A stretch of 32,000 nt of DNA from Erysipelothrix larvae (GTDB taxonomy: Bacteria > Bacillota_I > Bacilli_A > Erysipelotrichales > Erysipelotrichaceae). Location: assembly GCF_001545095.1 (NCBI RefSeq), contig NZ_CP013213.1:1050001-1082000 (forward strand), read 5' to 3'. Within the stretch, counting starts at the first letter, position 1, and every line of letters begins with the position of its first letter. The notes under the pieces are model-generated. The model did no database searches. It saw nothing but the letters and a program-made list of their open reading frames with translations, and was not told where the DNA came from. A program made the translations under genes and the position numbers. Shown here piece by piece: positions 14,660 through 26,619 of the stretch.

Positions 14660-16297
14660 ATGTTAGTAAATTTATATATCAAGAATTATATTTTGATTCA
14701 AGAATTATCTGTTTCACTTTCAGATCGTTTTAATGTCTTTACTGGAGAAACAGGTGCAGGAAAATCTCTTGTCGTTGATGCGCTTAATTTTGTAACCGGT
14801 GAACGAAGCAAAAGTTCGGTAGTTGGGAAACACGGAAACCGAGCACTTGTTGAGGCATCGTTTTCAGTGAGTCCAACATCATCTTTTTATAAAGAACTCG
14901 AATTATTGGGATACATTGAATCCGAAGATGATTTAGTGATTGTTTCACGCGAAATTTCAAAAGATGGACGGAATGTATGTCGAATCAACGGAAGAACGGT
15001 TAATGTTTCAACAATGAAAGATGTCTTATCAAAGACACTGGATATTCATTCACAACATGAAACACAATATCTCCTCAATACAACACACCAACTCAAACTC
15101 CTCGATATGTATCTTAACGATTCAAAATACCTCCAACACTATCAAGAAACTTTTCACAAATATAAGCAAATTGTTGATGAGATTCACCGACTTAAAACCA
15201 CGACATTATCTGGTTATGAGCTTGAATTCGCGAAAACACAACTCAATGAAATTGAAGCATTTAAGCCGTCAAGTGATGAGTATGAAGCGATTCGGCTTGA
15301 AATCAAACAACTCGATGATTATGAAAAGAATAAATCCTTGCTAAATGACATTGAATCCACACTAACGGGTTCTAAAGATGTTTTAGGATCACTTTTCAGT
15401 ATTAAAGATCATTTTAATATGCTTTCTGATTTAAAAGAAGGGTTTGATGATGTCTATTATCGTTTAGAAGACATATCCTATCAAGTATCAAAAATAAATA
15501 GTGAAACATCCTTCGACGCAATTGTCTATGAAAAACTACAAGATAGACTGTATAAATATAACCAAATGATTCGTAAATATCTTTCTCTTGAAGGATTGTT
15601 TGAGAAAAAGAAAGAACTAGAAACTATGATCCATGCTGTGGAACATCATGATCAGTTAATGGAAGATTTAGACATAGAATTGAAGAAGGTAGAAGATTTA
15701 TTAGCTCAAGATGCGCGTTTACTTAGAAACGCACGTGTTGATGCATCAAAACGTCTAATCCAAGAGGTTGTTGGCCAATGTCGCGACTTAATGCTTGAGA
15801 ATGTTCGATTTGATATTTCTTTTGATGATATCGACTATTCTGAATCGGGAAAAGACCGAATTGTCTTTATGGTTAGTATGAATAAGGGAGAAGCACTCCA
15901 ACCGCTTGCTAGTGCTGCTAGCGGCGGAGAACTTTCACGTGTGATGCTTGCAATGAAAGTCATCTTCAGTAAACTTCAAGGAATAACAACACTTGTATTT
16001 GATGAAATTGATACTGGAGTCAGTGGCAAAGTATCCCTTAAGATTGGTGAGAAAATGAAAACAATCTCAAAAGATACTCAAGTGCTGACAATTACACACT
16101 ATGGAACTGTTGCTGCATGTGCACATAATCATTACCTCATTGAGAAATCTGAAGATCATGACCATACCATCACTTCTGTGAAACGACTTAAGACCAAAGA
16201 ACGGGTACACGAACTTGCTTTGATGATGTCTGGAAATGAAGAAGAAGCCTCACTATTGGCTGCAAGTCAGCTTTTTGAACAAGGACAAAGTTTATGA
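14660..16297 (+). CDS. recN: DNA repair protein RecN
   Basis: The Walker A motif GETGAGKS, a long coiled-coil middle region, the SMC-type signature SGGELSR and the Walker B motif LVFDEIDTG are all present. Confidence 0.93.
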   Translation: MLVNLYIKNYILIQELSVSLSDRFNVFTGETGAGKSLVVDALNFVTGERSKSSVVGKHGNRALVEASFSVSPTSSFYKELELLGYIESEDDLVIVSREISKDGRNVCRINGRTVNVSTMKDVLSKTLDIHSQHETQYLLNTTHQLKLLDMYLNDSKYLQHYQETFHKYKQIVDEIHRLKTTTLSGYELEFAKTQLNEIEAFKPSSDEYEAIRLEIKQLDDYEKNKSLLNDIESTLTGSKDVLGSLFSIKDHFNMLSDLKEGFDDVYYRLEDISYQVSKINSETSFDAIVYEKLQDRLYKYNQMIRKYLSLEGLFEKKKELETMIHAVEHHDQLMEDLDIELKKVEDLLAQDARLLRNARVDASKRLIQEVVGQCRDLMLENVRFDISFDDIDYSESGKDRIVFMVSMNKGEALQPLASAASGGELSRVMLAMKVIFSKLQGITTLVFDEIDTGVSGKVSLKIGEKMKTISKDTQVLTITHYGTVAACAHNHYLIEKSEDHDHTITSVKRLKTKERVHELALMMSGNEEEASLLAASQLFEQGQSL

Positions 16298-17472
16298 GCC
16301 ACCATGCAAAAGTAATTTTCCACATTGATATTAACGCCTTTTTTGCCAGTGCCCATCTGATTTTGGATCCTTCTTTACAAGGGAAACCAGTAGTGGTCGC
16401 GCGTGATGCAACAGGGTCAGTTATTACGACCGCTTCTTATGAAGCACGTGAATATGGAATTAACAGTGCAATGCCCTTAAGTAGAGCAAAACAACTCTGT
16501 AAAGACCTTGTGATTGTTGAAATGGATTTTGGTTGGTATCAAGAACTCTCCGAACAATTTATGGAAATCGTGAGCACATTTGGTTCATCCATTCAACCGA
16601 TGAGTATCGATGAATGTTATTTAGATGTAACCGAATCAATCAAACGATACAAACGACCTTTAGATCTAGCGGTTACGATTCAAAAAACAGTACACGAGAA
16701 ACTCAAACTACCTGTGAGTATTGGGGTTGGACCCAATAAGTTTTTAGCAAAAATGGCCAGTGATATGAAAAAACCCATGGGAATTACAGTACTGAGAAAA
16801 CGGGAAGTGGATACCATGTTGTGGCCACTACCAATCGAAGATATGTATGGCATAGGAAAGAAAACTGTTCCTAAACTTAAAGCACAAGGCATTGTGACCA
16901 TTGGAGATCTCGCACATGCAAATCCTGATTCAATTCGAAACATTCTAGGAATCAATACTGAAAACTATATCGATCGAGCAAATGGGAATGCAAGCAGTCA
17001 AATTGAAGAATCTTCCGTCGCGAAATCGGTGGGTCAATCAAAAACTTTAATTCCAGCAATCCATGACTTTGACGAATTGAAGACTGCAATTCTTCATGAA
17101 GTTGTACAAGTAGAACGACGCTTAAAGAAAACAGGTATGGTAGGGAAAACGGTTCAATTTTCATTAAGACTTGAAAACTACAAAACTGCAAGTCGATCGG
17201 TTACGTTAGACCGCTATATTGATTCGAAAAACGATATTTTCGAAAATGCTCTCATGCTTTATGATGAATTTGAAGGTGAGGGGGCAGTGACGTTTATTTC
17301 AGTTGCGCTTTCCAATCTTCTTCCACGCGAAGATGTCGTCTCGCAAATTAATCTATTTGATGTAACACGCAATCTTAAAACGGATGAACTGATTGGCAAA
17401 TTAAATAACGCTCTTAAAACAGATGTCTTTAAGAAAGCAAGTGATGTTCGTGCTTCCGGTAAGAAATTATGA
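16294..17472 (+). CDS. dinB: Y-family DNA polymerase IV
   Basis: The motifs HIDINAFFAS and SIDECYLDVT carry the catalytic acidic residues. The clamp-binding-like motif QINLF lies near the C-terminus. The start forms an ATGA overlap with the recN stop. Confidence 0.92.
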   Translation: MSHHAKVIFHIDINAFFASAHLILDPSLQGKPVVVARDATGSVITTASYEAREYGINSAMPLSRAKQLCKDLVIVEMDFGWYQELSEQFMEIVSTFGSSIQPMSIDECYLDVTESIKRYKRPLDLAVTIQKTVHEKLKLPVSIGVGPNKFLAKMASDMKKPMGITVLRKREVDTMLWPLPIEDMYGIGKKTVPKLKAQGIVTIGDLAHANPDSIRNILGINTENYIDRANGNASSQIEESSVAKSVGQSKTLIPAIHDFDELKTAILHEVVQVERRLKKTGMVGKTVQFSLRLENYKTASRSVTLDRYIDSKNDIFENALMLYDEFEGEGAVTFISVALSNLLPREDVVSQINLFDVTRNLKTDELIGKLNNALKTDVFKKASDVRASGKKL

Positions 17473-18389
17473 TTGCCCTTGATAAACATTATCAGGATTT
17501 TATCTATCACATTCAGTTTGTAGAACCTTTAAGTAAAAACACAGTAGAAAACTATCGTCGTGATGTTGAAGAATACATTCGCTTTTTAAAACGTCAGAAA
17601 ATCGAAGACATAGATCAAGTTACGCATGCGCTGTTGATCGAATATTTCTCAGATATGACACACACCCTTCAACCTGCGTCAATCAGTCGAAAACGGGTAT
17701 CTGTGCGTCAGTTTCACCGATATTTACACCGCTTTGGCAGGGCTCAATTCAATCCAACAACGCTACTATCAAGTCATAAAGAAGCGCAAAGGATTCCCAA
17801 AGCAGTTTCAATTGATTCTGTTCGTACGTTAGTATCGTTTGAAAAAGAATTGCCCAAAGATTTCTTGGATTTTGCAATTATTCTTTTACTCTTTCGATGT
17901 GGACTTCGTGTGAGTGAATGTGTTGATTTATCGTTCCAACAATACAACGAACACGAAGGATGGTTGCGGATCTTGGGAAAGGGAAATAAAGAACGCTTTG
18001 TTCCAATTTCAAAAGATGCCAATGATGCGCTTAAAGCTTACATAAAAACTACACGCCCCATCTGTATAAAAAAACAAAATGATGCATCGCGGCGATACAT
18101 ATTTTTTACATTGCGTGGAAACCGAATTACAAGACAATATGTCCACGAAATGCTACAATATAGGTGCAATGAAACGGGCGTTAATGAACATATCTCGGCG
18201 CATACGTTGCGCCATACATTCGCAACAACACTGCTTGATGCGGGTGTGGATCTTAGAATTATTCAAGAGTTACTTGGACATGAAGATATCCAAACAACTC
18301 AAATATATACCCATGTCAAACGTCAAACATTAAAGAATGAATATGAACGCTATATGTTTGGGGATTTTGACTTTGAAGGAGATGATTAA
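17469..18389 (+). CDS. xerD: tyrosine site-specific recombinase XerD
   Basis: The protein has an N-terminal SAM-like core-binding domain. The C-terminal catalytic residues are in [17 protein letters not shown] and [16 protein letters not shown] (R..HxxR..H..Y). It is adjacent to deoB, like B. subtilis ripX/xerD. The XerD versus XerC assignment rests on this synteny. Confidence 0.8.
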
Positions 18390-18391
18390 AA

Positions 18392-19585
18392 ATGGGGAAA
18401 TATAAGTTTAATCGAATTATTACAGTCGTTATGGACTCTGTGGGAGCAGGAGCAGCCCATGATGCAGAAAAGTATGGCGATGCCGGTTCAGATACACTTG
18501 GACACATCGGTGAAGCTGTAGGGGGGCTCAATCTTCCTTACCTTCAAAATTTAGGCCTTGGAAATCTACATCCAATCAAGGGTGTTGATCCTGTAGAAAA
18601 ACCACACGGATATTATACGAAACTTGTTGAAACTTCTGCAGGAAAAGATACGATGACTGGTCACTGGGAATTAATGGGCTTATTCATCGATGAACCTTTT
18701 ATTACATTTACTGAGACAGGATTTCCACAAGATTTACTGGATGAACTTTCATCGCGAACAGGGTATGGCATTATTGGAAATAAAGCTGCGAGTGGCACTG
18801 AAATCTTAGATGAGCTTGGTGAAGAACACATGGCAACTAAAAAGATGATTGTTTACACCTCTGCTGACTCTGTACTGCAAATTGCAGCTCATGAAGAAGT
18901 GTTTGGTTTGGATGAATTGTATCGCGCATGTGAAATTGCACGTGAACTCACAATGAAACCTGAATGGAAGGTTGGACGTGTCATTGCACGGCCGTTTATC
19001 GGTGACAAAAAAGGTGCGTTTACACGTACTTCAAATAGACATGATTATGCTTTGAAGCCATTTGGGAAAACAGAGTTAGATCATTTGAAAGATGCTGGCT
19101 TGGATGTAATCAGTGTTGGGAAAATTATTGATATCTTTGATGGTGAAGGAATTACAGATTACCATCGATCCAAGAGCAATTTCCATGGAATGGAACAAAC
19201 CATCGATATTGTTAAGAACACTGATTTTACAGGATTGATGTTTGTTAATCTTGTTGATTTTGATGCACTTTGGGGTCATCGTAGAAATCCTGAAGGATAT
19301 GCAAAACAATTAGAGGAATTTGACGGACAATTAGCAGAACTTCTTGCGTCACTTAGAAATGATGATTTACTCATCATAACTGCAGATCATGGTAATGATC
19401 CAACACATCCTGGAACCGATCATACACGTGAAGAAGTACCGGTGCTATACTACTCACCATCATTCACGCATTTTGGTCCACTTAAAGATAAAGGATTCTT
19501 TGCTGACATTGCACAAACAATTGCGGATAACTTCAATACAGCTAAACCTGAATATGGGACATCAGTATTGGATGAACTAATATAA
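18392..19585 (+). CDS. deoB: phosphopentomutase
   Basis: Alkaline-phosphatase-superfamily metal-site motifs are present ([27 protein letters not shown]). The length of 397 aa is typical. Confidence 0.93.
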
Positions 19586-19588
19586 GAT

Positions 19589-19631
19589 AAAAAAGGTGGA
19601 ATCATTTTAAATAATGTGATTCTACCTTTTT
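19589..19631. terminator. bidirectional intrinsic terminator between convergent deoB and pepD
   Basis: The sequence is AAAAAAGGTGGAATCA-(12 nt)-TGATTCTACCTTTTT. It forms an 11-bp stem with one G-U pair, flanked by an A-tract on the left and a T-tract on the right. Confidence 0.7.
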
Positions 19632-19637
19632 GCTATA

Positions 19638-21074
19638 TTATTGATTGAAGGTGTTCAGTGACTTCATGAATGCAAGAATAAATTCATAGGTTCTTTCAAA
19701 TGACGCGAGGTCAAGATGTTCAGAAGGGGTATGAATATCATACATAAGGGGACCGATATTGACGATATCAAGCGCAGGCATCTTATCTTTAAAGATTCCC
19801 AGCTCAAGCCCACCATGTGTTGCTTCTTCAACAATTTCATAACCTCGAAGCTCAAAGAACACATCCTTAAGCTGTTTTCTTAGTTTCGAATCCTTATCAT
19901 AGTTCCAACCAGGATAATGGGCCGTAACATCGATTTGCACCCCTAAATTATCGGTAATCCATTGAACCTGTCTCATTAAGTTATCCAAGACGAATGCTTG
20001 GGTTGCGCGAACAGAAAGGAGTATTTCAAGTTGATTATTTTCAAGTGCGATCTTTCCAATGTTTGCTGAAGCAATTACTAAATCTTTGATTGCCATACTC
20101 TTATGAATCACGCCATAGGGTAACATAAACAAAAGATCAATTATCTTTTGAGTACTTTGCTTACTCAGGACTCTATGTGATTGGCCATCTGAGATAGAGA
20201 TTTCTAAACCAGGATCACTGAATTGAAACTGAAATTTTAATTCATCGATGATTGAATCTATCCATTGCTTAAAGGGTTCAATCAGTTCATTATTCAGTGC
20301 AATTTCAAAATCTACTTCGCGACAAATAGCGTTAACTTTTAAGCCGCCTTCAATATCCACAAGGCGAATCTCAAATTTATCCAAGGCACGTCGTAAGATA
20401 AACCCTGCGATTTTCAATGCGTTTCCATATTCTTTATCAATATCGATTCCTGAATGACCGCCTAGAAGCCCACGGATGCTAATCTGAAGTGTTTCATAAG
20501 AGGTTGCTTCATAATCGATTGGAGCGATGAGTCTGCTGTACACGCCACCTGTTGATGATACACAAACGATATTCTCACCACCACTATCAAGACCCAGCAT
20601 TAATTCTGACTTTAAACCTGACATATCTAAGTTTTCAGCGCCAATAAGACCGACTTCTTCTTGCACAGTGAAGACACATTCAAGGGCAGGGTGATGAATT
20701 TGTGTGTCTTCAAGGATTGCGAGCATATAAGCAACACCAACACCGTCATCAGCGCCTAATGTTGTATTATTTGCCCACAAATGTCCATCCCTAACACATA
20801 ATGAAAGGGGGTCTATACTAAAATCATGGTTGCTTGATTTATTCTTCTCTGCGACCATGTCCATGTGACCTTGAAGTAATAATGTTGGAACATCTTCATA
20901 TCCAGGTGTTGCTTGTTTCTTGATGATAACGTTAAAGTGTTCATCTTGGATGGTTTCAAGTCCTAAACGCAAACCAAAATCAACAATAAAATTACTAATG
21001 CGTTCTTCGTCAAAAGAAGCACGGGGTATTTCACTAATTTGTTTAAATAGTTCAATGATTCTAGATTCTGCCAT
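19638..21074 (-). CDS. pepD: aminoacyl-histidine dipeptidase (M20 family, PepD-like)
   Basis: 478 aa with the N-terminal pattern ...F..IS.IPR.S..E..I..F... and the metal-binding motifs LQGHMDMV and GADDGVGVA typical of PepD. The RBS AAAGGAGG is present. Confidence 0.85.
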   Translation of the reverse strand: MAESRIIELFKQISEIPRASFDEERISNFIVDFGLRLGLETIQDEHFNVIIKKQATPGYEDVPTLLLQGHMDMVAEKNKSSNHDFSIDPLSLCVRDGHLWANNTTLGADDGVGVAYMLAILEDTQIHHPALECVFTVQEEVGLIGAENLDMSGLKSELMLGLDSGGENIVCVSSTGGVYSRLIAPIDYEATSYETLQISIRGLLGGHSGIDIDKEYGNALKIAGFILRRALDKFEIRLVDIEGGLKVNAICREVDFEIALNNELIEPFKQWIDSIIDELKFQFQFSDPGLEISISDGQSHRVLSKQSTQKIIDLLFMLPYGVIHKSMAIKDLVIASANIGKIALENNQLEILLSVRATQAFVLDNLMRQVQWITDNLGVQIDVTAHYPGWNYDKDSKLRKQLKDVFFELRGYEIVEEATHGGLELGIFKDKMPALDIVNIGPLMYDIHTPSEHLDLASFERTYEFILAFMKSLNTFNQ

Positions 21075-21272: not shown

Positions 21273-21300
21273 AACTTACATAATATACATTATACGAAGT
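21273..21300 (-). other. dif: candidate chromosome dimer resolution site dif (XerC/XerD recombination site)
   Basis: The minus strand reads ACTTCGTATAA-TGTATA-TTATGTAAGTT, an 11-6-11 architecture. As I recall the reference sites, it matches B. subtilis dif (ACTTCCTAGAATATATATTATGTAAACT) at 23 of 28 positions. It matches E. coli dif (GGTGCGCATAATGTATATTATGTTAAAT) at 21 of 28, including 16 contiguous identities (ATAATGTATATTATGT). The site is intergenic and close to the only strand switch in the window. Confidence 0.7.
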
Positions 21301-21329: not shown

Positions 21330-21361
21330 CAAAATAAAAGAACTGTAATGACACAGTTCTT
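21330..21361 (-). terminator. intrinsic terminator of the mtl-type operon
   Basis: The minus strand reads AAGAACTGT-GTCATT-ACAGTTCTT followed by TTATTTTGG. It begins 10 nt after the stop of the dehydrogenase gene. Confidence 0.65.
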
Positions 21362-21371
21362 GCTTACTATC

Positions 21372-22631
21372 TTAAACGTTGAAGTAATTTAAGAGATAAT
21401 GTTCAGCTTCTTTATTCCAAAGTCCATTATATTTTTCGCATAATAGATCTAACGCTTTAAATAATTCGTTGTCTTGACCCAATGCTTTAAAATCTTCAAT
21501 CGCTGTCAATGGCAGTTCTATATGTGTATAGATTAATTTCTTACCACCAGGAATGTTTGGAAGATTCTTGGTTGTTTCACCAGCACTGTTTAAACCACCA
21601 ATATGTGTGATCATTAAGGATGGATTAATCAGACCTTTGCTTGCTAAATCAAGTGCTTCAATTAAATCATCATTATTACCACCAGTTGTACCCATGATAT
21701 GTGTACTAGTATAATGCACATCATAGAGATTTATGTTTGCTAAGAAGTTTTTGTCGGTTGGTCCTGCAAAGACATTTAAACATCCGTCAAAGGCCAAGAG
21801 TCGATTTCCTTGTTCAGCTAAATCTTTCACTGGAACATACACAAATACATCATCATAGCCGTGTCCGTTTGTCAGGTCCATGAGTGCTTGTTCGTCATCG
21901 TCATAATCATTTGGATTAAAATAGACTAATTCAATCCCTTTTTCTTTCATTTTTGTTTCAGGAAGGACTTTCTTAGCACGGTCAAGGCGATCTTGACTAA
22001 TATCGGTTACAACCACCATTTTTGGTTTCTTTTCTAGAGCACCAGCATAATCAATTGCTCCAAGACCCATCGGGCCAGTTCCACCTAAAATTAGAAGATA
22101 TCCCCCCTCTTTTATCCCCATTTCGTGGTCGTAGTTTCTTTTATTGGTATGATAATTTGCGTTAAACCCACCAATTACACACGACATAGGTTCTCCTAAA
22201 CTTGCACTATAATATGAATCCCCTTCATATACCATAAGGCATCCAAGTTCCATAACTTCTTGTGGGATGATGCAATACGTGCAATCCCCGCCAAAATATG
22301 GGTATGAATAGCCAGGTGATGCTAAGCTGCCTTTGTAATTTAATGCCGGTTGTTGCGCAAATTTTTGACCGGGTTTAAATTGGTCTTGCCATTTCTTGCC
22401 TACCTTAATAATATCTCCTGCAAACTCATGACCTAAAATAATTGGGTTTTCATGAACATTATCTGGCACACGTTTGTGATTCGCACCTTGAATGATTGTT
22501 TTATATGAGGACATGCAAATGCTGTCTGACACAACTTTTACTAAGATCTCATCGTCTTTTATTTCAGGCAATTCAAAAGTTTCAAGACGAACGTCATTAA
22601 CACCATAAAGGCGTACTGCTTTTGTTTCCAT
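21372..22631 (-). CDS. Zn-dependent medium-chain (MDR) polyol-phosphate dehydrogenase/reductase, possibly sorbose-1-phosphate-reductase-like, in the mtlD position
   Basis: Catalytic-zinc ligand motifs (SDSICMSS, LGHEFAG) and the Rossmann motif LILGGTGPMGLGAI are present. At 419 aa it carries a C-terminal extension beyond a typical MDR. It is the last gene of the mtlA-mtlR-mtlF operon. It shows no resemblance to the long-chain mannitol-1-P dehydrogenase family. Confidence 0.7.
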   Translation of the reverse strand: METKAVRLYGVNDVRLETFELPEIKDDEILVKVVSDSICMSSYKTIIQGANHKRVPDNVHENPIILGHEFAGDIIKVGKKWQDQFKPGQKFAQQPALNYKGSLASPGYSYPYFGGDCTYCIIPQEVMELGCLMVYEGDSYYSASLGEPMSCVIGGFNANYHTNKRNYDHEMGIKEGGYLLILGGTGPMGLGAIDYAGALEKKPKMVVVTDISQDRLDRAKKVLPETKMKEKGIELVYFNPNDYDDDEQALMDLTNGHGYDDVFVYVPVKDLAEQGNRLLAFDGCLNVFAGPTDKNFLANINLYDVHYTSTHIMGTTGGNNDDLIEALDLASKGLINPSLMITHIGGLNSAGETTKNLPNIPGGKKLIYTHIELPLTAIEDFKALGQDNELFKALDLLCEKYNGLWNKEAEHYLLNYFNV

Positions 22632-22652
22632 AGTATGTCTCCTTTTTTTTGA

Positions 22653-23075
22653 CTATTTTCCGTTCAGGATTTGGATTATTTCTTCTTTTGACTCAGCATT
22701 TGTGATTCTTTTGACGTTGTCTTCATTTGAACACACAATCGCGATTTGAGACAAAATATCCATATGTGTATTGTTTTTTCCAGCAATTCCAAAAATAACG
22801 GTTGCACATTCTCCATTATATTCGATACCTTGCGGTACTTGTAAGACGACAATTCCTGATTTTAAGATAAAGTCACGTGCTTCATCTGTACCATGTGGTA
22901 TCGCAACACCGTTTCCGATGTAAGTTGTTGTTAGGATATCTCTTTGGATCATTGTTTCTATATATGGTTCCACAACATAACCCCGTTCAACAAGTTTGCG
23001 TCCTGCATATCGGATTGAGTCTTCCTTAGTTTGAAACGCCATGTTGAGTTCGATATCTTGAAATGTAATTTCCAT
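22653..23075 (-). CDS. mtlF: PTS EIIA component, mannitol/fructose (EIIA-2) family
   Basis: 140 aa with the phosphorylation-site motif GNGVAIPHGT. Confidence 0.88.
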   Translation of the reverse strand: MEITFQDIELNMAFQTKEDSIRYAGRKLVERGYVVEPYIETMIQRDILTTTYIGNGVAIPHGTDEARDFILKSGIVVLQVPQGIEYNGECATVIFGIAGKNNTHMDILSQIAIVCSNEDNVKRITNAESKEEIIQILNGK

Positions 23076-23077
23076 CT

Positions 23078-25138
23078 CTATACTCCTTTTTGTATAAATC
23101 CTCTATATCTCGACACGAGATACGTTGTAATTTCGTTTTGATCACCCATTTCAAATATGCCTGGAGCTTCTTCATTGTCGATGATGAGCGAACTGGTAAA
23201 ACTTAAGAGTTCCAATTCGTATTGCTCAAGTTTCTCAGGTGCTAACAAGAGAATAAAGGTATTAACCCAGTGATTTCGATTATCCAATCCCAGAATTTGA
23301 ATGGGTTGAGTCAATGGAAATACTTTTAGGGTTGATTTTTTTATTCCTGCAGACCTTTCATGAAAAAAAGCAAGGTGTGTATTTGGAATGGCGAAACTGT
23401 TTTTGTGTCCCCCGTTAAGCATCGATTTCACAACAAGTTCTGGTTCTGATTCACTTTGAGTCATTGCAACTAAACACATTGCACGTATGTAATCTTCAAT
23501 TGAATTGGAGTTGACAGTCAACATACGAACTTCAAAGTCTTCAATTAGTTGAGACATGAGTGTGGATGTTTTGGAAAGTGTTTCAAAATAATCCATCGCT
23601 TCATTGAGCGATACTGACTGAGGTGTTTCATAGCGCAAACTGTTAACATTCATCAAGGATAAGTGTGATGTGATGTTCTCAATATCCTGATTTGATAGAA
23701 TGGGACTCACAAGGAGATAGTCAAAGTTTACATTACCAAGATCTAGTGTTGAAATGATGATATCGTATAACTGATGGTCATCACGCTGAAGTACATCAAA
23801 TACTGAAGTTGTTTTAAGCTTAGAAAACTGTGGGAATGTCTTTTGAATGCGCGTTAAGAGCATTTTAGAGGTTCCAATACCGCTTGAACACACAATCAAA
23901 CACGAGAACTTTTTCTTCTGAGATTGAATTATTGCTGCACCAAAGTGTAATACGAGGTAACCAATTTCATCCTCATTGACATAAATATCAACGAATATAT
24001 CTTCCACTGCTTTAGAGATTGTATTAAACAATAGACCATGTTCTTCCTTAATTGAGTCAATCAATGGATTGGAGATCATCATGTTTTGATCCAGTCTTCT
24101 GAGCGCGCTTCTTAAGTGTGTGATGAGTCCTTTTAATAGTGTTTCGTCGTTAAAGTGATAGTCCAGGTCGTTTTGAATGCGATGAATCAGCTTTTGAGCA
24201 AGATTCGTTGCACGCATCGTATCCCGTTCAATAAGATGGTGTGAATCCTTGAGTTTAGCACTTCTCAGGTATTGAGCGACATAAATAATCTCATTTTCAG
24301 GGAGATCAGTTTGTGGTGTGTCCATGATGTTTGAGAGTATCTGAATTGCATCCTGGTATTCATCGGATTCAACGATATCTTCAATATTAGTATCATACAC
24401 TTTGACAAGTTCTTGTTCCTTAATCCGTTCTACTGCAATAGATACATGAACCAATAAGGTAAAATAGGATTCATCTGCTAATTTATATTCTTGTGTCTCA
24501 TGCCATTTTTTAAGTTCTTGGTCAACAATAATTAATCGATTGTCATCAATTAAGCCCAAGAGTCTGTCTTTTATAAAGAGTCGATTCGTATCTGTATCGT
24601 TTTGATATAAGAATTGAACAAGAAGCGGCGTTGAAATGGTGTTATGGACCATATTCCGAATAATCGTTCGTTTTTCGATTTCAGTCGCAATTAGTGAGAT
24701 GCCTGTGCCCCTTTTTGTATCAATCTTGATGGATTGCCCATATTCATCTTTAATTTTTAAAAGGTCAGCACGAATTGTTGACTCCGTAACATTTAATTCA
24801 TTTGCAAGGGATGTGATTGTGAGCGTATCGTTTGATTTTATGAGTTGCTTAAGGATAAAGTTTTGACGTTCAAGTGGGGTAAATTCACTATAGGATAGGT
24901 CAAATAAGTGCCATTTAAATGTTTGAATGTTTTTCTCTAAACCATCGATGCTTAAGGTGTTGTTTCTTATTATAAGTTTCAGATCGTAATCAGTACATAT
25001 TGATGTTATTTCGTCTAAATCACGTCGAATCGTTCGACTACTAACTCCCAATGTTTTAGCCATCGTATCGATTGATATTGGAAAACTCGATACGAGCAAT
25101 TTTTCAAGGATTAATCGTCCCCGAGCAGAAACTAACAT
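23078..25138 (-). CDS. mtlR: MtlR-type PRD-containing transcriptional activator
   Basis: 686 aa. It has an N-terminal winged-HTH (TMAKTLGVSSRTIRRDLDEI), Mga-like and PRD regions, an EIIB(Gat)-like domain with the Cys motif LIVCSSGIGTSKML, and a C-terminal EIIA(Mtl)-like domain. It lies between mtlA and mtlF, as in Geobacillus and Streptococcus mtl operons. Confidence 0.85.
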   Translation of the reverse strand: MLVSARGRLILEKLLVSSFPISIDTMAKTLGVSSRTIRRDLDEITSICTDYDLKLIIRNNTLSIDGLEKNIQTFKWHLFDLSYSEFTPLERQNFILKQLIKSNDTLTITSLANELNVTESTIRADLLKIKDEYGQSIKIDTKRGTGISLIATEIEKRTIIRNMVHNTISTPLLVQFLYQNDTDTNRLFIKDRLLGLIDDNRLIIVDQELKKWHETQEYKLADESYFTLLVHVSIAVERIKEQELVKVYDTNIEDIVESDEYQDAIQILSNIMDTPQTDLPENEIIYVAQYLRSAKLKDSHHLIERDTMRATNLAQKLIHRIQNDLDYHFNDETLLKGLITHLRSALRRLDQNMMISNPLIDSIKEEHGLLFNTISKAVEDIFVDIYVNEDEIGYLVLHFGAAIIQSQKKKFSCLIVCSSGIGTSKMLLTRIQKTFPQFSKLKTTSVFDVLQRDDHQLYDIIISTLDLGNVNFDYLLVSPILSNQDIENITSHLSLMNVNSLRYETPQSVSLNEAMDYFETLSKTSTLMSQLIEDFEVRMLTVNSNSIEDYIRAMCLVAMTQSESEPELVVKSMLNGGHKNSFAIPNTHLAFFHERSAGIKKSTLKVFPLTQPIQILGLDNRNHWVNTFILLLAPEKLEQYELELLSFTSSLIIDNEEAPGIFEMGDQNEITTYLVSRYRGFIQKGV

Positions 25139-25161
25139 GTGTCACACCCCTTATGAAATCA

Positions 25162-26538
25162 TTATTTTTTTAATGAGTTAACTAAATCAGTATATTCTCC
25201 TTCACTTAAGAAGTTTGTTACAGTAATGACATGTGCACCTGGACGTTTATCAAGGACACGGTCTTTTAAATCTACATGCGTTACAATGATGTCTCCATCA
25301 TTTGGTAATTGTGAAATTGCAGCATTTGTCACCTCAATATCAAGTCCAGCATTCTTAATTTTGTTTCTAAGAACAGAAGCTCCCATAGCGCTTGAACCCA
25401 TACCTGCATCACATGCAAAGATAATTTTCTTTATTGAAGATGGAGTGAGTTGAACTTTTGATTGCGCTTTTGCTGATTGAACATTTTGAGTTGCAGTTTC
25501 AAGTGACATTTCTGAGTCTTTTGATCGTCTTAAGATGACTGCAGAAACAATAAATGAAACAGTTGCTGATAATATCACACTTAGTATAACACCAATGTAT
25601 GAGTTTCTTTCTGTCATTGCTAGGATTGCAAAGATGCTTCCTGGTGACGCTGCAGCAACAAGACCTGCATTCGTAATCGATAGTGTAAATACGCCTACCA
25701 TACCACCAGAAATTGCTGCAAGCAAGAGAATTGGGTTCATCAAAATATATGGGAAGTAAATTTCATGAATTCCACCTAAGAAATGAATGATAATCGCACC
25801 TGGTGCGGTTTGTTTAGCTGTCCCCTTACCAAATAATGTATAAGCAACCAAAATTCCAAGACCAGGGCCAGGGTTTGCTTCTACAAGATAGAGCAATGAT
25901 TTACCATGTTCCGCAACTTGGTCGAGTGCGATTGGTCCCAAAACTCCATGATTAATTGCATTGTTCAAGAAGAGTACTTTTGCGGGTTCCACAAAAATGC
26001 TAACCAGTGGCAATAAACTATTTGAAATTAAGAGGTCAGCACCATTGGCCATAAAGTTGTTGAGCTGTTCAACAGCAGGTCCAATAATAATGAGTGAACA
26101 AACTGCAAGGATTCCTCCTAAGATTCCTGAAGAAAAGTTATTGATAAGCATTTCAAATCCAGCTGGGATTTTCCCTTCAACAAGTCCGTCAAATTTCTTT
26201 AGTAGCCATGCTGAGAATGGCCCCATAATCATTGCACCTAAGAACATTGGAATCGAAGATCCAACAATTAACCCCATCGTTACGGTTGAAGCGATGACGC
26301 CTCCACGTGTATCGTAGATTAGTTTACCACCAGTATACCCAATCAATACCGGTAGGAGGTATTTAATCATAGGGTCTACTAGTTGAGCAAGATGTTCATT
26401 TGGAGCCCATCCAGTTGCGATAAAGAGTGCTGTAATAAGACCCCAAGCAATGAATGCACCGATATTTGGCATAACCATTCCACTGAGGTAGCTTCCAAAG
26501 CGTTGCACTTTCACTTTTAAACTTTTGTTTTCTGACAT
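25162..26538 (-). CDS. mtlA: PTS mannitol-family EIICB component
   Basis: A polytopic EIIC domain is joined to a C-terminal EIIB domain with the phospho-Cys motif FACDAGMGSSAMG. I prefer the ATG at 26538 (MSENK...), which lies 6 nt after AAGGAG, over the upstream ATG at 26571. Confidence 0.9.
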   Translation of the reverse strand: MSENKSLKVKVQRFGSYLSGMVMPNIGAFIAWGLITALFIATGWAPNEHLAQLVDPMIKYLLPVLIGYTGGKLIYDTRGGVIASTVTMGLIVGSSIPMFLGAMIMGPFSAWLLKKFDGLVEGKIPAGFEMLINNFSSGILGGILAVCSLIIIGPAVEQLNNFMANGADLLISNSLLPLVSIFVEPAKVLFLNNAINHGVLGPIALDQVAEHGKSLLYLVEANPGPGLGILVAYTLFGKGTAKQTAPGAIIIHFLGGIHEIYFPYILMNPILLLAAISGGMVGVFTLSITNAGLVAAASPGSIFAILAMTERNSYIGVILSVILSATVSFIVSAVILRRSKDSEMSLETATQNVQSAKAQSKVQLTPSSIKKIIFACDAGMGSSAMGASVLRNKIKNAGLDIEVTNAAISQLPNDGDIIVTHVDLKDRVLDKRPGAHVITVTNFLSEGEYTDLVNSLKK

Positions 26539-26619
26539 TGTCTTCTCCTTTGAATCTATTGGTAGATTCATATTATTTTGAAGATGGTACCTTACTTCAC
26601 TTATATTGTAAGGAACTTT

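What the first reader, a model, noticed from the sequence alone, without database searches (positions are those of the whole stretch)
21273..21300. Near-consensus XerCD dif site in the pepD / mtl-operon intergenic region
The minus strand reads ACTTCGTATAA TGTATA TTATGTAAGTT, with the 11-6-11 bp architecture of a dif site. The central hexamer and the inner arms (ATAATGTATATTATGT, 16 nt) are identical to E. coli dif. Identity to B. subtilis dif as I remember it is 23 of 28. The site lies in a 297-bp non-coding gap, 2.9 kb from xerD and 1.7 kb from the only convergent strand switch in the window. I found no second dif-like copy in the 32 kb. An IMEX-type element bounded by duplicated dif sites is therefore not indicated within this window.
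Basis: partly seen in the sequence, partly recalled or inferred. Interest (0 to 1): 0.62.

Follow-up and report, generated by a model that had tools for sequence, protein, structure and literature searches.

The report
Chromosomal dif site linked to xerD
The 28-bp sequence is almost certainly the ordinary chromosome-dimer resolution site (dif) of an Erysipelothrix-type bacterium; the one less ordinary point is that here and in many related families it sits just downstream of the xerD recombinase gene, although the XerCD literature says such genes lie far from dif.

Summary
Window 21273-21300 (minus strand) reads ACTTCGTATAA-TGTATA-TTATGTAAGTT. It matches B. subtilis dif at 23/28 positions and E. 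coli dif at 21/28. It is unique in the 2.51-Mb genome; the next best 28-mer has 7 mismatches.

Position fits a terminus site. It lies 1.5 kb from the cumulative GC-skew maximum and 55 bp from the A/T-skew turning point, with dnaA at base 37. The genome encodes two intact Xer paralogues: XerD in the window, and XerC next to trmFO. It also encodes one FtsK with a gamma domain.

One such site per genome is conserved across Erysipelotrichales. Conservation is confined to the 28 bp, and GC skew flips at the site in 16 of 17 loci. I read it as an ordinary XerCD dif site, confidence about 0.93. It is not an IMEX, promoter or RNA element.

Two additions:
- dif lies 0.07-8 kb downstream of (recN-dinB-)xerD(-deoB), in a fixed orientation, in 45 of 61 genomes of the order (a 46th at 9.6 kb has the site inverted) and in 32 of 42 assessable genomes from other orders of the class.
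- A related Erysipelothrix carries a filamentous-phage-like element joined to its dif through a hybrid site, which is natural evidence of Xer use.

This scan earlier noted gene-linked dif-like sites on other DNA (Clostridia, CPR). Its notes compare those with single-recombinase modules.

The parts
21273..21300 (-). dif site, 28 bp: ACTTCGTATAA / TGTATA / TTATGTAAGTT
   Evidence: exact sequence, unique in the genome; across 34 related loci, conservation is confined to these 28 columns (1.64 bits per column against 0.3-0.5 in the flanks).
21290..21300 (-). Left arm ACTTCGTATAA, the inferred XerC-binding half-site
   Evidence: Assigned by position, by analogy with E. coli and B. subtilis dif (review PMC5357621). 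Binding was not tested.
21284..21289 (-). Central region TGTATA, where strand exchange would occur; identical to E. coli dif
21273..21283 (-). Right arm TTATGTAAGTT, the inferred XerD-binding half-site; it lies on the side facing the xerD gene
   Evidence: Analogy as above. TTATGTAA is nearly invariant in relatives.
17469..18389 (+). xerD-type tyrosine recombinase (306 aa)
   Evidence: TIGR02225 scores 268 bits and NF001399 269.5 bits, both below the equivalog cut-offs; the catalytic motifs ([31 protein letters not shown]) align with E. coli XerD (1A0P). It is followed by deoB, as I recall for B. subtilis ripX.
18392..19585 (+). deoB (phosphopentomutase), the conserved gene between xerD and dif in most relatives
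   Evidence: TIGR01696 scores 578.7 bits. Searches show the synteny.
14660..17472 (+). recN and dinB, the upstream part of the conserved recN-dinB-xerD-deoB block
   Evidence: for the families; for the synteny.
19586..19637 (.). Convergence point of the two gene orientations; a hairpin lies between deoB and pepD. The cumulative GC-skew maximum is at window 19778.
19638..21074 (-). pepD-type M20 dipeptidase. Not found between deoB and dif within 10 kb of dif in 16 relatives, so I infer a lineage-specific insertion; it accounts for the 1.5-kb offset between the skew maximum and dif.
   Evidence: TIGR01893 scores 477.8 bits; not found within 10 kb of dif in 16 relatives; the gene carries the negative skew of its own coding strand.
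21338..21361 (-). Intrinsic terminator of the PTS operon, 38 nt upstream of dif on the minus strand
21372..26571 (-). PTS operon (mtlA EIICB, MtlR-like regulator, EIIA, Zn-dehydrogenase). Not found beside dif within 10 kb in 16 relatives, so I infer a lineage-specific insertion between dif and the o239-o332-der-cmk block that abuts dif in other Erysipelothrix.
   Evidence: for the families; for the synteny.

Best explanation
This is the chromosomal dif site of an Erysipelothrix-type Firmicute (an earlier scan note names Erysipelothrix larvae).

Inferred mechanism, by homology with E. coli and B. subtilis:
1. When homologous recombination joins the two sister chromosomes into a dimer, the FtsK translocase at the septum brings the two dif copies together.
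2. XerC binds the left arm ACTTCGTATAA and XerD binds the right arm TTATGTAAGTT.
3. The two tyrosine recombinases exchange strands across the 6-bp centre TGTATA and so resolve the dimer.

Shown here: the sequence, its uniqueness, its position at the skew turning point, its conservation one per genome, and the presence of intact XerC, XerD and FtsK-gamma genes. Inferred: binding, cleavage order and FtsK dependence.

The site belongs to a conserved arrangement, (recN-dinB-)xerD(-deoB)-dif. That arrangement is older than the order Erysipelotrichales. In this genome it is interrupted only by an inserted pepD gene.
For: - Exact 11-6-11 site, 23/28 to B. subtilis dif and 21/28 to E. coli dif.
- Unique in 2.51 Mb; the next best 28-mer has 7 mismatches.
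- dnaA is at C1:37-1368. The cumulative GC-skew minimum is at the chromosome end and the maximum at 1,069,778. The T-A skew minimum is at 1,071,355. The site is at 1,071,273-1,071,300.
- Leading-strand-biased 7-mers, chosen using only sequence more than 200 kb from the site, flip at 1,069,746/1,069,823. A G-rich KOPS/SRS-like set flips between 1,070,684 and 1,072,220, which brackets the site.
- Two Xer paralogues are present with their catalytic motifs intact. The XerC-like one lies directly after trmFO.
- One FtsK gamma domain is present, 104 bits.
- All 61 relatives have a Xer match, and 60 of them have at least two.
- Relatives carry one site each with the consensus ACTTCGCATAATGTATATTATGTAAnTT.
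- GC skew changes from positive to negative at the site in 16 of 17 loci.
- Conservation is confined to the 28 bp.
- In relative G017, a filamentous-phage-like contig joins the deoB-side flank of dif through a hybrid site that has a foreign XerC arm. This is the signature of Xer-mediated integration at this kind of site.
Against: - There is no experimental evidence of binding or recombination for this organism.
- Both Xer proteins score below the NCBIfam XerC and XerD equivalog cut-offs. The XerC/XerD assignment therefore rests on small score differences and on gene neighbourhood.
- The polar-motif flip is confounded with the gene-orientation switch, and the G-rich set is small.
- The site is 176 kb from the point opposite dnaA (unequal replichores).
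- The IMEX evidence comes from another species.
Confidence: 0.93

Rival explanations
1. The site is a junction left by an integrated element that exploits Xer (an IMEX attL or attR), not the native dif. On this view pepD or the PTS operon would be its cargo.
For: pepD and the PTS operon flank the site immediately. Neither was found within 10 kb of dif in 16 relatives. A relative does carry a phage-like IMEX at its dif.
Against: - There is no second dif-like or half dif-like site at the outer ends of pepD or the PTS operon, nor anywhere in the window.
- Neither flank holds phage, replication or mobility genes.
- The site is the genome's only copy, so it must also serve as the native dif.
- The 52-bp deoB/pepD junction is a plain hairpin.
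Confidence: 0.03
2. The partial palindrome is a promoter or operator element for pepD. It contains TATAAT on the pepD coding strand, about 215 nt upstream of the start codon.
For: It lies in the pepD upstream region and contains a perfect -10 hexamer.
Against: - The consensus scan finds no -35/-10 pair at the site on the minus strand.
- The same 28-mer is conserved in genomes where the downstream gene is deoB or something else and no pepD was found nearby.
- Every dif site of this type contains CATAAT or TATAAT.
Confidence: 0.02
3. It is a chance A+T-rich near-palindrome, or a structured RNA or DNA element.
For: The region is A+T-rich (33-35% G+C).
Against: - None of 100 shuffles gave a match.
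- The genome-wide next best 28-mer has 7 mismatches.
- No Rfam family reaches threshold.
- The folding z-score is -1.4, which is not significant.
- The site is strictly conserved across an order.
Confidence: 0.01

Closest known systems
B. subtilis dif (Bsdif, ACTTCCTAGAATATATATTATGTAAACT) acted on by CodV (XerC) and RipX (XerD)
   Same: Both are 28-bp sites with 11-6-11 architecture, and 23 of 28 bases are identical. The right (XerD) arm is the better conserved. Both lie at the terminus of a Firmicute chromosome. Both genomes have two recombinases. From memory, xerD is followed by deoB/drm and xerC follows trmFO/gid in B. subtilis as well.
   Different: The central hexamer is TGTATA (the E. 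coli type), not TATATA, and the left arm is ACTTCGYATAA. Only one FtsK/SpoIIIE-type gamma-domain protein was found here, whereas B. subtilis has SpoIIIE and SftA. Here dif lies 2.9 kb from xerD, and 0.07-2 kb in many relatives. From memory, B. subtilis ripX is hundreds of kb from dif.
E. coli dif (GGTGCGCATAATGTATATTATGTTAAAT) with XerC, XerD and FtsK
   Same: The 16-nt core ATAATGTATATTATGT, which includes the central region, is identical. Both are single copy and lie at the skew switch. An FtsK gamma domain is present in both.
   Different: The outer arm positions differ (21/28 overall). Le Bourgeois et al. [quoted passage not shown] The KOPS motif of this clade is unknown.
XerS/difSL (streptococci, lactococci) and XerH/difH (Helicobacter, Campylobacter) gene-plus-site modules
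   Same: The recombinase gene and its site stay physically linked at the terminus across a large clade. [quoted passage not shown]
   Different: Here the site is a canonical 28-bp dif with a 6-bp centre and two different arms. The genome keeps two XerC/XerD-type paralogues of about 300 aa, not one XerS or XerH of about 356 aa. The site lies downstream of the gene (usually beyond deoB), not immediately upstream.
IMEX elements (CTX-phi, VGJ-phi, TLC-phi of Vibrio; gonococcal GGI)
   Same: In relative G017, a filamentous-phage-like element with a rolling-circle Rep (PF23343) and a weak Zot-like ATPase match is joined to dif through a hybrid site that shares the centre and the XerD arm.
   Different: Nothing of this kind is present in the window or in the window's genome.
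XDS sites (XerD-only binding sites that unload Smc-ScpAB in the B. subtilis terminus; Karaboja et al. 2021, cited through PMC11894783)
   Same: Two exact copies of the 12-mer TATATTATGTAA lie 13.8 and 77.6 kb from dif on the same strand. Both lack an XerC arm.
   Different: A weight-matrix scan for the XerD half-site puts its best hits all over the chromosome, not near the terminus. The 12-mer count of 3 is what base composition predicts. I do not call these XDS sites.

Membership tests
XerCD-type chromosomal dif site | 28 bp: two 11-bp arms of partial dyad symmetry around a 6-bp centre | tested here: met
   ACTTCGTATAA / TGTATA / TTATGTAAGTT.
XerCD-type chromosomal dif site | Sequence similarity to experimentally defined dif sites | tested here: met
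   23/28 to B. subtilis dif and 21/28 to E. coli dif. The reference sequences were verified in PMC3025954.
XerCD-type chromosomal dif site | Single copy per chromosome | tested here: met
   the next best 28-mer has 7 mismatches.
XerCD-type chromosomal dif site | Located at the replication terminus (the GC-skew shift point) | tested here: met
   1.5 kb (0.06% of the chromosome) from the GC-skew maximum and 55 bp from the T-A skew minimum, with dnaA at base 37. Kono et al. report 0.00-1.39% as the +/-1 sigma range.
XerCD-type chromosomal dif site | Cognate XerC and XerD recombinases encoded, with catalytic residues intact | tested here: met
   two paralogues with intact motifs. Both score below the NCBIfam equivalog cut-offs, so which one is XerC and which is XerD is inferred from score order and gene neighbourhood.
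XerCD-type chromosomal dif site | FtsK/SpoIIIE translocase with a gamma domain | tested here: met
   PF09397 scores 104 bits in a 794-aa open frame at C1:1224106.
XerCD-type chromosomal dif site | Polar guide motifs (KOPS/SRS) converge on the site | tested here: inconclusive
   the biased motifs flip within 1.5 kb. The flip coincides with the gene-orientation switch, and the true motif for this clade is unknown.
XerCD-type chromosomal dif site | Orthologous site conserved in relatives, with selection confined to the site | tested here: met
XerCD-type chromosomal dif site | Xer binding and FtsK-dependent recombination at the site | not testable with these tools
   The only evidence is indirect: the hybrid dif junction of a phage-like element in relative G017.
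IMEX (integrative element exploiting Xer) | Element bounded by dif and a second dif-like site, with phage or mobility genes | tested here: not met
   the window has no second site and no such genes.
XerS/difSL-type single-recombinase module | Atypical site (31 bp, 11-bp centre) and one dedicated recombinase of about 356 aa | tested here: not met
   The site is a canonical 28-mer. There are two paralogues of about 306-311 aa. The XerS model NF003462 scores only 104 bits against a cut-off of 267.
XerS/difSL-type single-recombinase module | Conserved physical linkage of the recombinase gene and its site | tested here: met
   This is a resemblance in organisation only, not membership.
XDS (XerD-specific binding sites) | Several XerD half-sites clustered in the terminus region | tested here: not met

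The most novel reading that the evidence does not exclude
In Erysipelotrichales and at least eight further families of the same class, xerD and a canonical two-arm dif form a conserved, fixed-orientation gene-plus-site pair. The pair is kept together by selection rather than by inertia, for example because XerD made next to its target finds it faster, or because a terminus position times its expression. Where deoB is missing, dif abuts xerD directly. This would extend the 'recombination module' idea, so far regarded as a hallmark of the single-recombinase systems XerS and XerH, to classical XerCD systems.
Probability: 0.3. Interest if true: 0.45.

Novelty: new member of a known kind. Interest (0 to 1): 0.27.

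Why it matters
The site fixes the replication terminus and the replichore boundaries of this genome at 1.07 and 1.42 Mb. It also gives a dif consensus for Erysipelotrichales, ACTTCGCATAATGTATATTATGTAAnTT. The one large dif survey I read (Kono et al. 2011) does not mention Erysipelothrix, and my searches found no other description.

The site itself is textbook biology. The wider pattern is the part a specialist might not expect. A canonical XerCD dif stays within a few kb of xerD, in one orientation, across many families. Le Bourgeois et al. (2007) state that classical xer genes lie 'distant from dif'. The pattern also has a practical use: anchoring on xerD-deoB found divergent dif sites that a similarity search had missed.

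The phage-like element joined to dif in a related Erysipelothrix indicates that Xer-exploiting filamentous phages occur in this Gram-positive group.

Tried and rejected
- IMEX in the window. I scanned for a second dif or half-dif site. None was found, and the deoB/pepD junction is a plain hairpin.
- XDS-like XerD half-sites. Two ter-proximal 12-mers looked suggestive. A half-site weight matrix gave top hits scattered around the chromosome, so I treat them as chance.
- A pseudo-dif 1.7 kb from dif in three relatives. It has no XerC arm and only a chance resemblance. The 6.6 kb between deoB and dif there holds adenine deaminase and an ABC transporter, not a mobile element.
- Telling XerC from XerD through solved structures. 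Both paralogues hit E. coli XerD (1A0P) equally well, so this was uninformative.
- Exact look-up of public names for the two Xer proteins. No names were returned.
- Promoter and RNA readings. Neither a promoter pair nor an Rfam family was found, and folding was not significant.
- The primary XDS paper (PMC7897262) is not held.
- The filamentous-phage Rep of G017 is absent from the window's genome and from the 57 other relatives outside G051 and G055, which gave only weak matches.

Full report
**1. The observation**

Window 21273-21300 reads, on the minus strand, ACTTCGTATAA TGTATA TTATGTAAGTT. Nothing else in the window matches it with up to 3 mismatches, and none of 100 dinucleotide-preserving shuffles gave a match.

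Identity is 23/28 to B. subtilis dif and 21/28 to E. coli dif.

The stated context is also right:
- The non-coding gap is 297 bp.
- xerD ends 2.9 kb away.
- The only convergent strand switch is 1.7 kb away.

**2. Genome context**

The window is C1:1,050,001-1,082,000 of a genome made of a 2,495,108-bp chromosome and a 16,378-bp second contig, at 37.4% G+C. In the whole genome the next best 28-mer has 7 mismatches, and the small contig has none with up to 8.

Position relative to replication:
- dnaA is at C1:37-1368.
- The cumulative GC skew has its minimum at the chromosome end and its maximum at 1,069,778.
- The cumulative T-A skew has its minimum at 1,071,355.
- The site is at 1,071,273-1,071,300.

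The 1.5-kb offset from the GC-skew maximum is exactly the pepD gene (19638-21074, minus strand). This gene carries the skew of its own coding strand.

The replichores are unequal, at 1.07 and 1.42 Mb. The site is therefore 176 kb from the point opposite dnaA, although the skew inflection itself is at the site.

I chose leading-strand-biased 7-mers using only sequence more than 200 kb from the site. They flip at 1,069,746/1,069,823, which is also the gene-orientation switch. A small G-rich KOPS/SRS-like set flips between 1,070,684 and 1,072,220, which brackets the site. I count this as consistent but confounded.

**3. The machinery**

- The window gene 17469-18389 is a Xer-type tyrosine recombinase. 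It scores 268 bits on the XerD model and 265 on the XerC model, both below the equivalog cut-offs.
- A second paralogue at C1:1,250,543-1,251,475 scores 295 bits on XerC and 271 on XerD. It lies directly after trmFO, which from memory is the Firmicute codV/xerC position.
- Both align with E. coli XerD (1A0P) with the catalytic Arg, Lys, His-x-x-Arg, His and Tyr motifs intact.
- One FtsK gamma domain is present.
- All 61 relatives have a Xer match, and 60 of them have at least two.

**4. Relatives**

Exact-pattern hits in named genomes are Erysipelothrix, Breznakia, Thomasclavelia, Faecalibacillus and other Erysipelotrichales, plus a few Gammaproteobacteria whose dif fits the same degenerate pattern. 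An earlier scan note names the genome Erysipelothrix larvae. I did not verify the species.

- In a 61-genome sample of the order, 29 genomes (counting the window's own) have a site within 3 mismatches; 28 of them have exactly one, and G017 has a second site on a phage-like contig (section 7). The consensus is ACTTCGCATAATGTATATTATGTAAnTT.
- GC skew changes from positive to negative at the site in 16 of 17 loci.
- Across 34 loci the information content is 1.64 bits per column inside the 28-mer and 0.3-0.5 in the flanks.

**5. What it is**

I conclude that it is the chromosomal XerCD dif site, confidence about 0.93. The mechanism is inferred from E. coli and B. subtilis (review PMC5357621): XerC on the left arm, XerD on the right arm, strand exchange across TGTATA, and FtsK bringing the sites together. 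It was not tested here.

The rivals fail:
- IMEX junction: there is no second or half dif site, and no mobility genes.
- Promoter or operator: there is no promoter pair at the site.
- RNA or structured element: there is no Rfam family, and folding is not significant.

**6.

Anchoring on dif, 14 of 16 relatives have recN-dinB-xerD-deoB within 8 kb on the same side. Many named Erysipelotrichales loci show the same arrangement.

I then anchored on xerD in genomes where no dif had been found at 3 mismatches. A dif-like site appeared from a few bp to 1.3 kb beyond deoB (or beyond xerD where deoB is missing) in 19 of them, plus one at 9.6 kb where the site is inverted.

Tally for the order:

| Outcome | Genomes |
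|---|---|
| dif within 10 kb of xerD | 46 of 61 (45 within 8 kb in the fixed orientation; G056 at 9.6 kb, inverted) |
| dif at 17 kb or 36 kb | 2 |
| Cut by contig ends, on another contig, not fetched or not found | 13 |

Orientation is the same in every case but G056: the XerD arm faces xerD.

Outside the order, within the same class (family names are withheld by the tool):
- The pair is within 8 kb in 32 of 42 genomes that could be assessed. These span eight coded families.
- It is 50-250 kb apart in four other families.
- Where deoB is missing, dif abuts xerD directly: 66 bp in a Breznakia locus and 0.6-0.8 kb in family f11.

The opposite flank of dif (o239-o332-der-cmk) was seen conserved only in Erysipelothrix and Breznakia loci of family f1.

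Neither pepD nor the 5.2-kb PTS operon was found within 10 kb of dif in the 16 relatives sampled. I therefore read both as lineage-specific insertions on either side of dif. In E. rhusiopathiae-like genomes the corresponding gap holds adenine deaminase and an ABC transporter.

The literature treats this differently:
- Le Bourgeois et al. 2007 state that classical xer genes are 'distant from dif'.
- Castillo et al. 2017 call gene-site proximity a possible hallmark of single-recombinase systems.
- Kono et al. 2011 found xerD mostly near the origin.

I found no paper describing the linkage in this group. I cannot decide whether it reflects selection or frozen synteny.

**7. Indirect functional evidence**

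In relative G017, a 4,255-bp contig starts with 127 nt identical to the deoB-side flank, XerD arm and centre of that genome's dif.

The contig then passes through a hybrid site, TATTCGTATAATGTATATTATGTAACTT, into the following genes:
- a rolling-circle Rep (PF23343, 53 bits),
- a weak Zot-like ATPase,
- small unannotated genes.

The main contig shows the empty site. This is the signature of a filamentous-phage-like IMEX using dif. The Rep is absent from the window's genome.

**8. Verdict**

The site is real, ordinary in kind and correctly interpreted. It is a new member of a known kind. The conserved xerD-dif linkage and the relative's IMEX add modest interest.

Noticed in passing
L160 (G017:C61:1-4255) and L161 (G017:C1:11080-11107): A filamentous-phage-like element in a related Erysipelothrix is joined to the chromosomal dif flank through a hybrid dif site with a foreign XerC arm. 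It carries a rolling-circle Rep (PF23343), a weak Zot-like ATPase and a 396-aa ORF without hits. The 127-nt overlap with the main contig implies that both occupied and empty sites are present in the reads.
   Followed up: partly
window 19638-21074 and 21372-26571: pepD and the PTS operon flank dif directly. Neither was found within 10 kb of dif in 16 relatives. Other Erysipelothrix have cmk-der-o332-o239-dif-deoB-xerD. I saw no mobility genes or repeats that would explain how the two blocks arrived.
   Followed up: partly
window 21372-22631: The last gene of the mannitol-type PTS operon is a 419-aa Zn-dependent medium-chain dehydrogenase (ADH_N and ADH_zinc_N domains), not an MtlD-family enzyme.
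   Followed up: no
G000:C1 whole chromosome: The replichores are unequal (1.07 and 1.42 Mb), so dif lies 7% of the chromosome away from the point opposite dnaA. The cause (large insertions or rearrangement) was not sought.
   Followed up: no
G000:C1:1,249,061-1,250,233 (L008:1-1173): An ISL3-family transposase lies directly downstream of the XerC-like gene. From memory, Bacillus has hslVU at that position. Six identical copies of a further repeated gene with a weak DnaA/IstB-like match, each with 2 in-frame TAA, are scattered around the chromosome.
   Followed up: no
G000:C1:1,085,126 and 1,148,863: Two exact copies of TATATTATGTAA (half the centre plus the XerD-arm core) lie 13.8 and 77.6 kb from dif on the same strand, without an XerC arm. 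A half-site weight matrix shows no terminus clustering, so this is probably chance and not XDS sites.
   Followed up: yes
L162 (G072:C81:17948-18121); G174:C56:16748: A genome of another order in the class has two inverted dif-like sites 146 bp apart, plus a third elsewhere. Another genome has two sites. These could be dif modules or an invertible segment.
   Followed up: no
L038 and L046: Contigs filed under Bacteroidaceae and Segatella copri carry Erysipelotrichales-type genes beside dif: xerD-deoB in L038 and o332-der-cmk in L046. They are probably mis-binned contigs.
   Followed up: no
L109 (G056:C3): This is the only genome in which dif lies 9.6 kb from deoB in the opposite relative orientation. 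That suggests a local inversion that includes dif.
   Followed up: no
L027, L029, L031, L033, L053: Gammaproteobacterial MAGs (Arenicellales, Arenimonas, Lysobacteraceae) have a site fitting the same 28-nt pattern as Erysipelotrichales, with no xerD or deoB in the DNA fetched around it. This shows how little dif has diverged between phyla.
   Followed up: no
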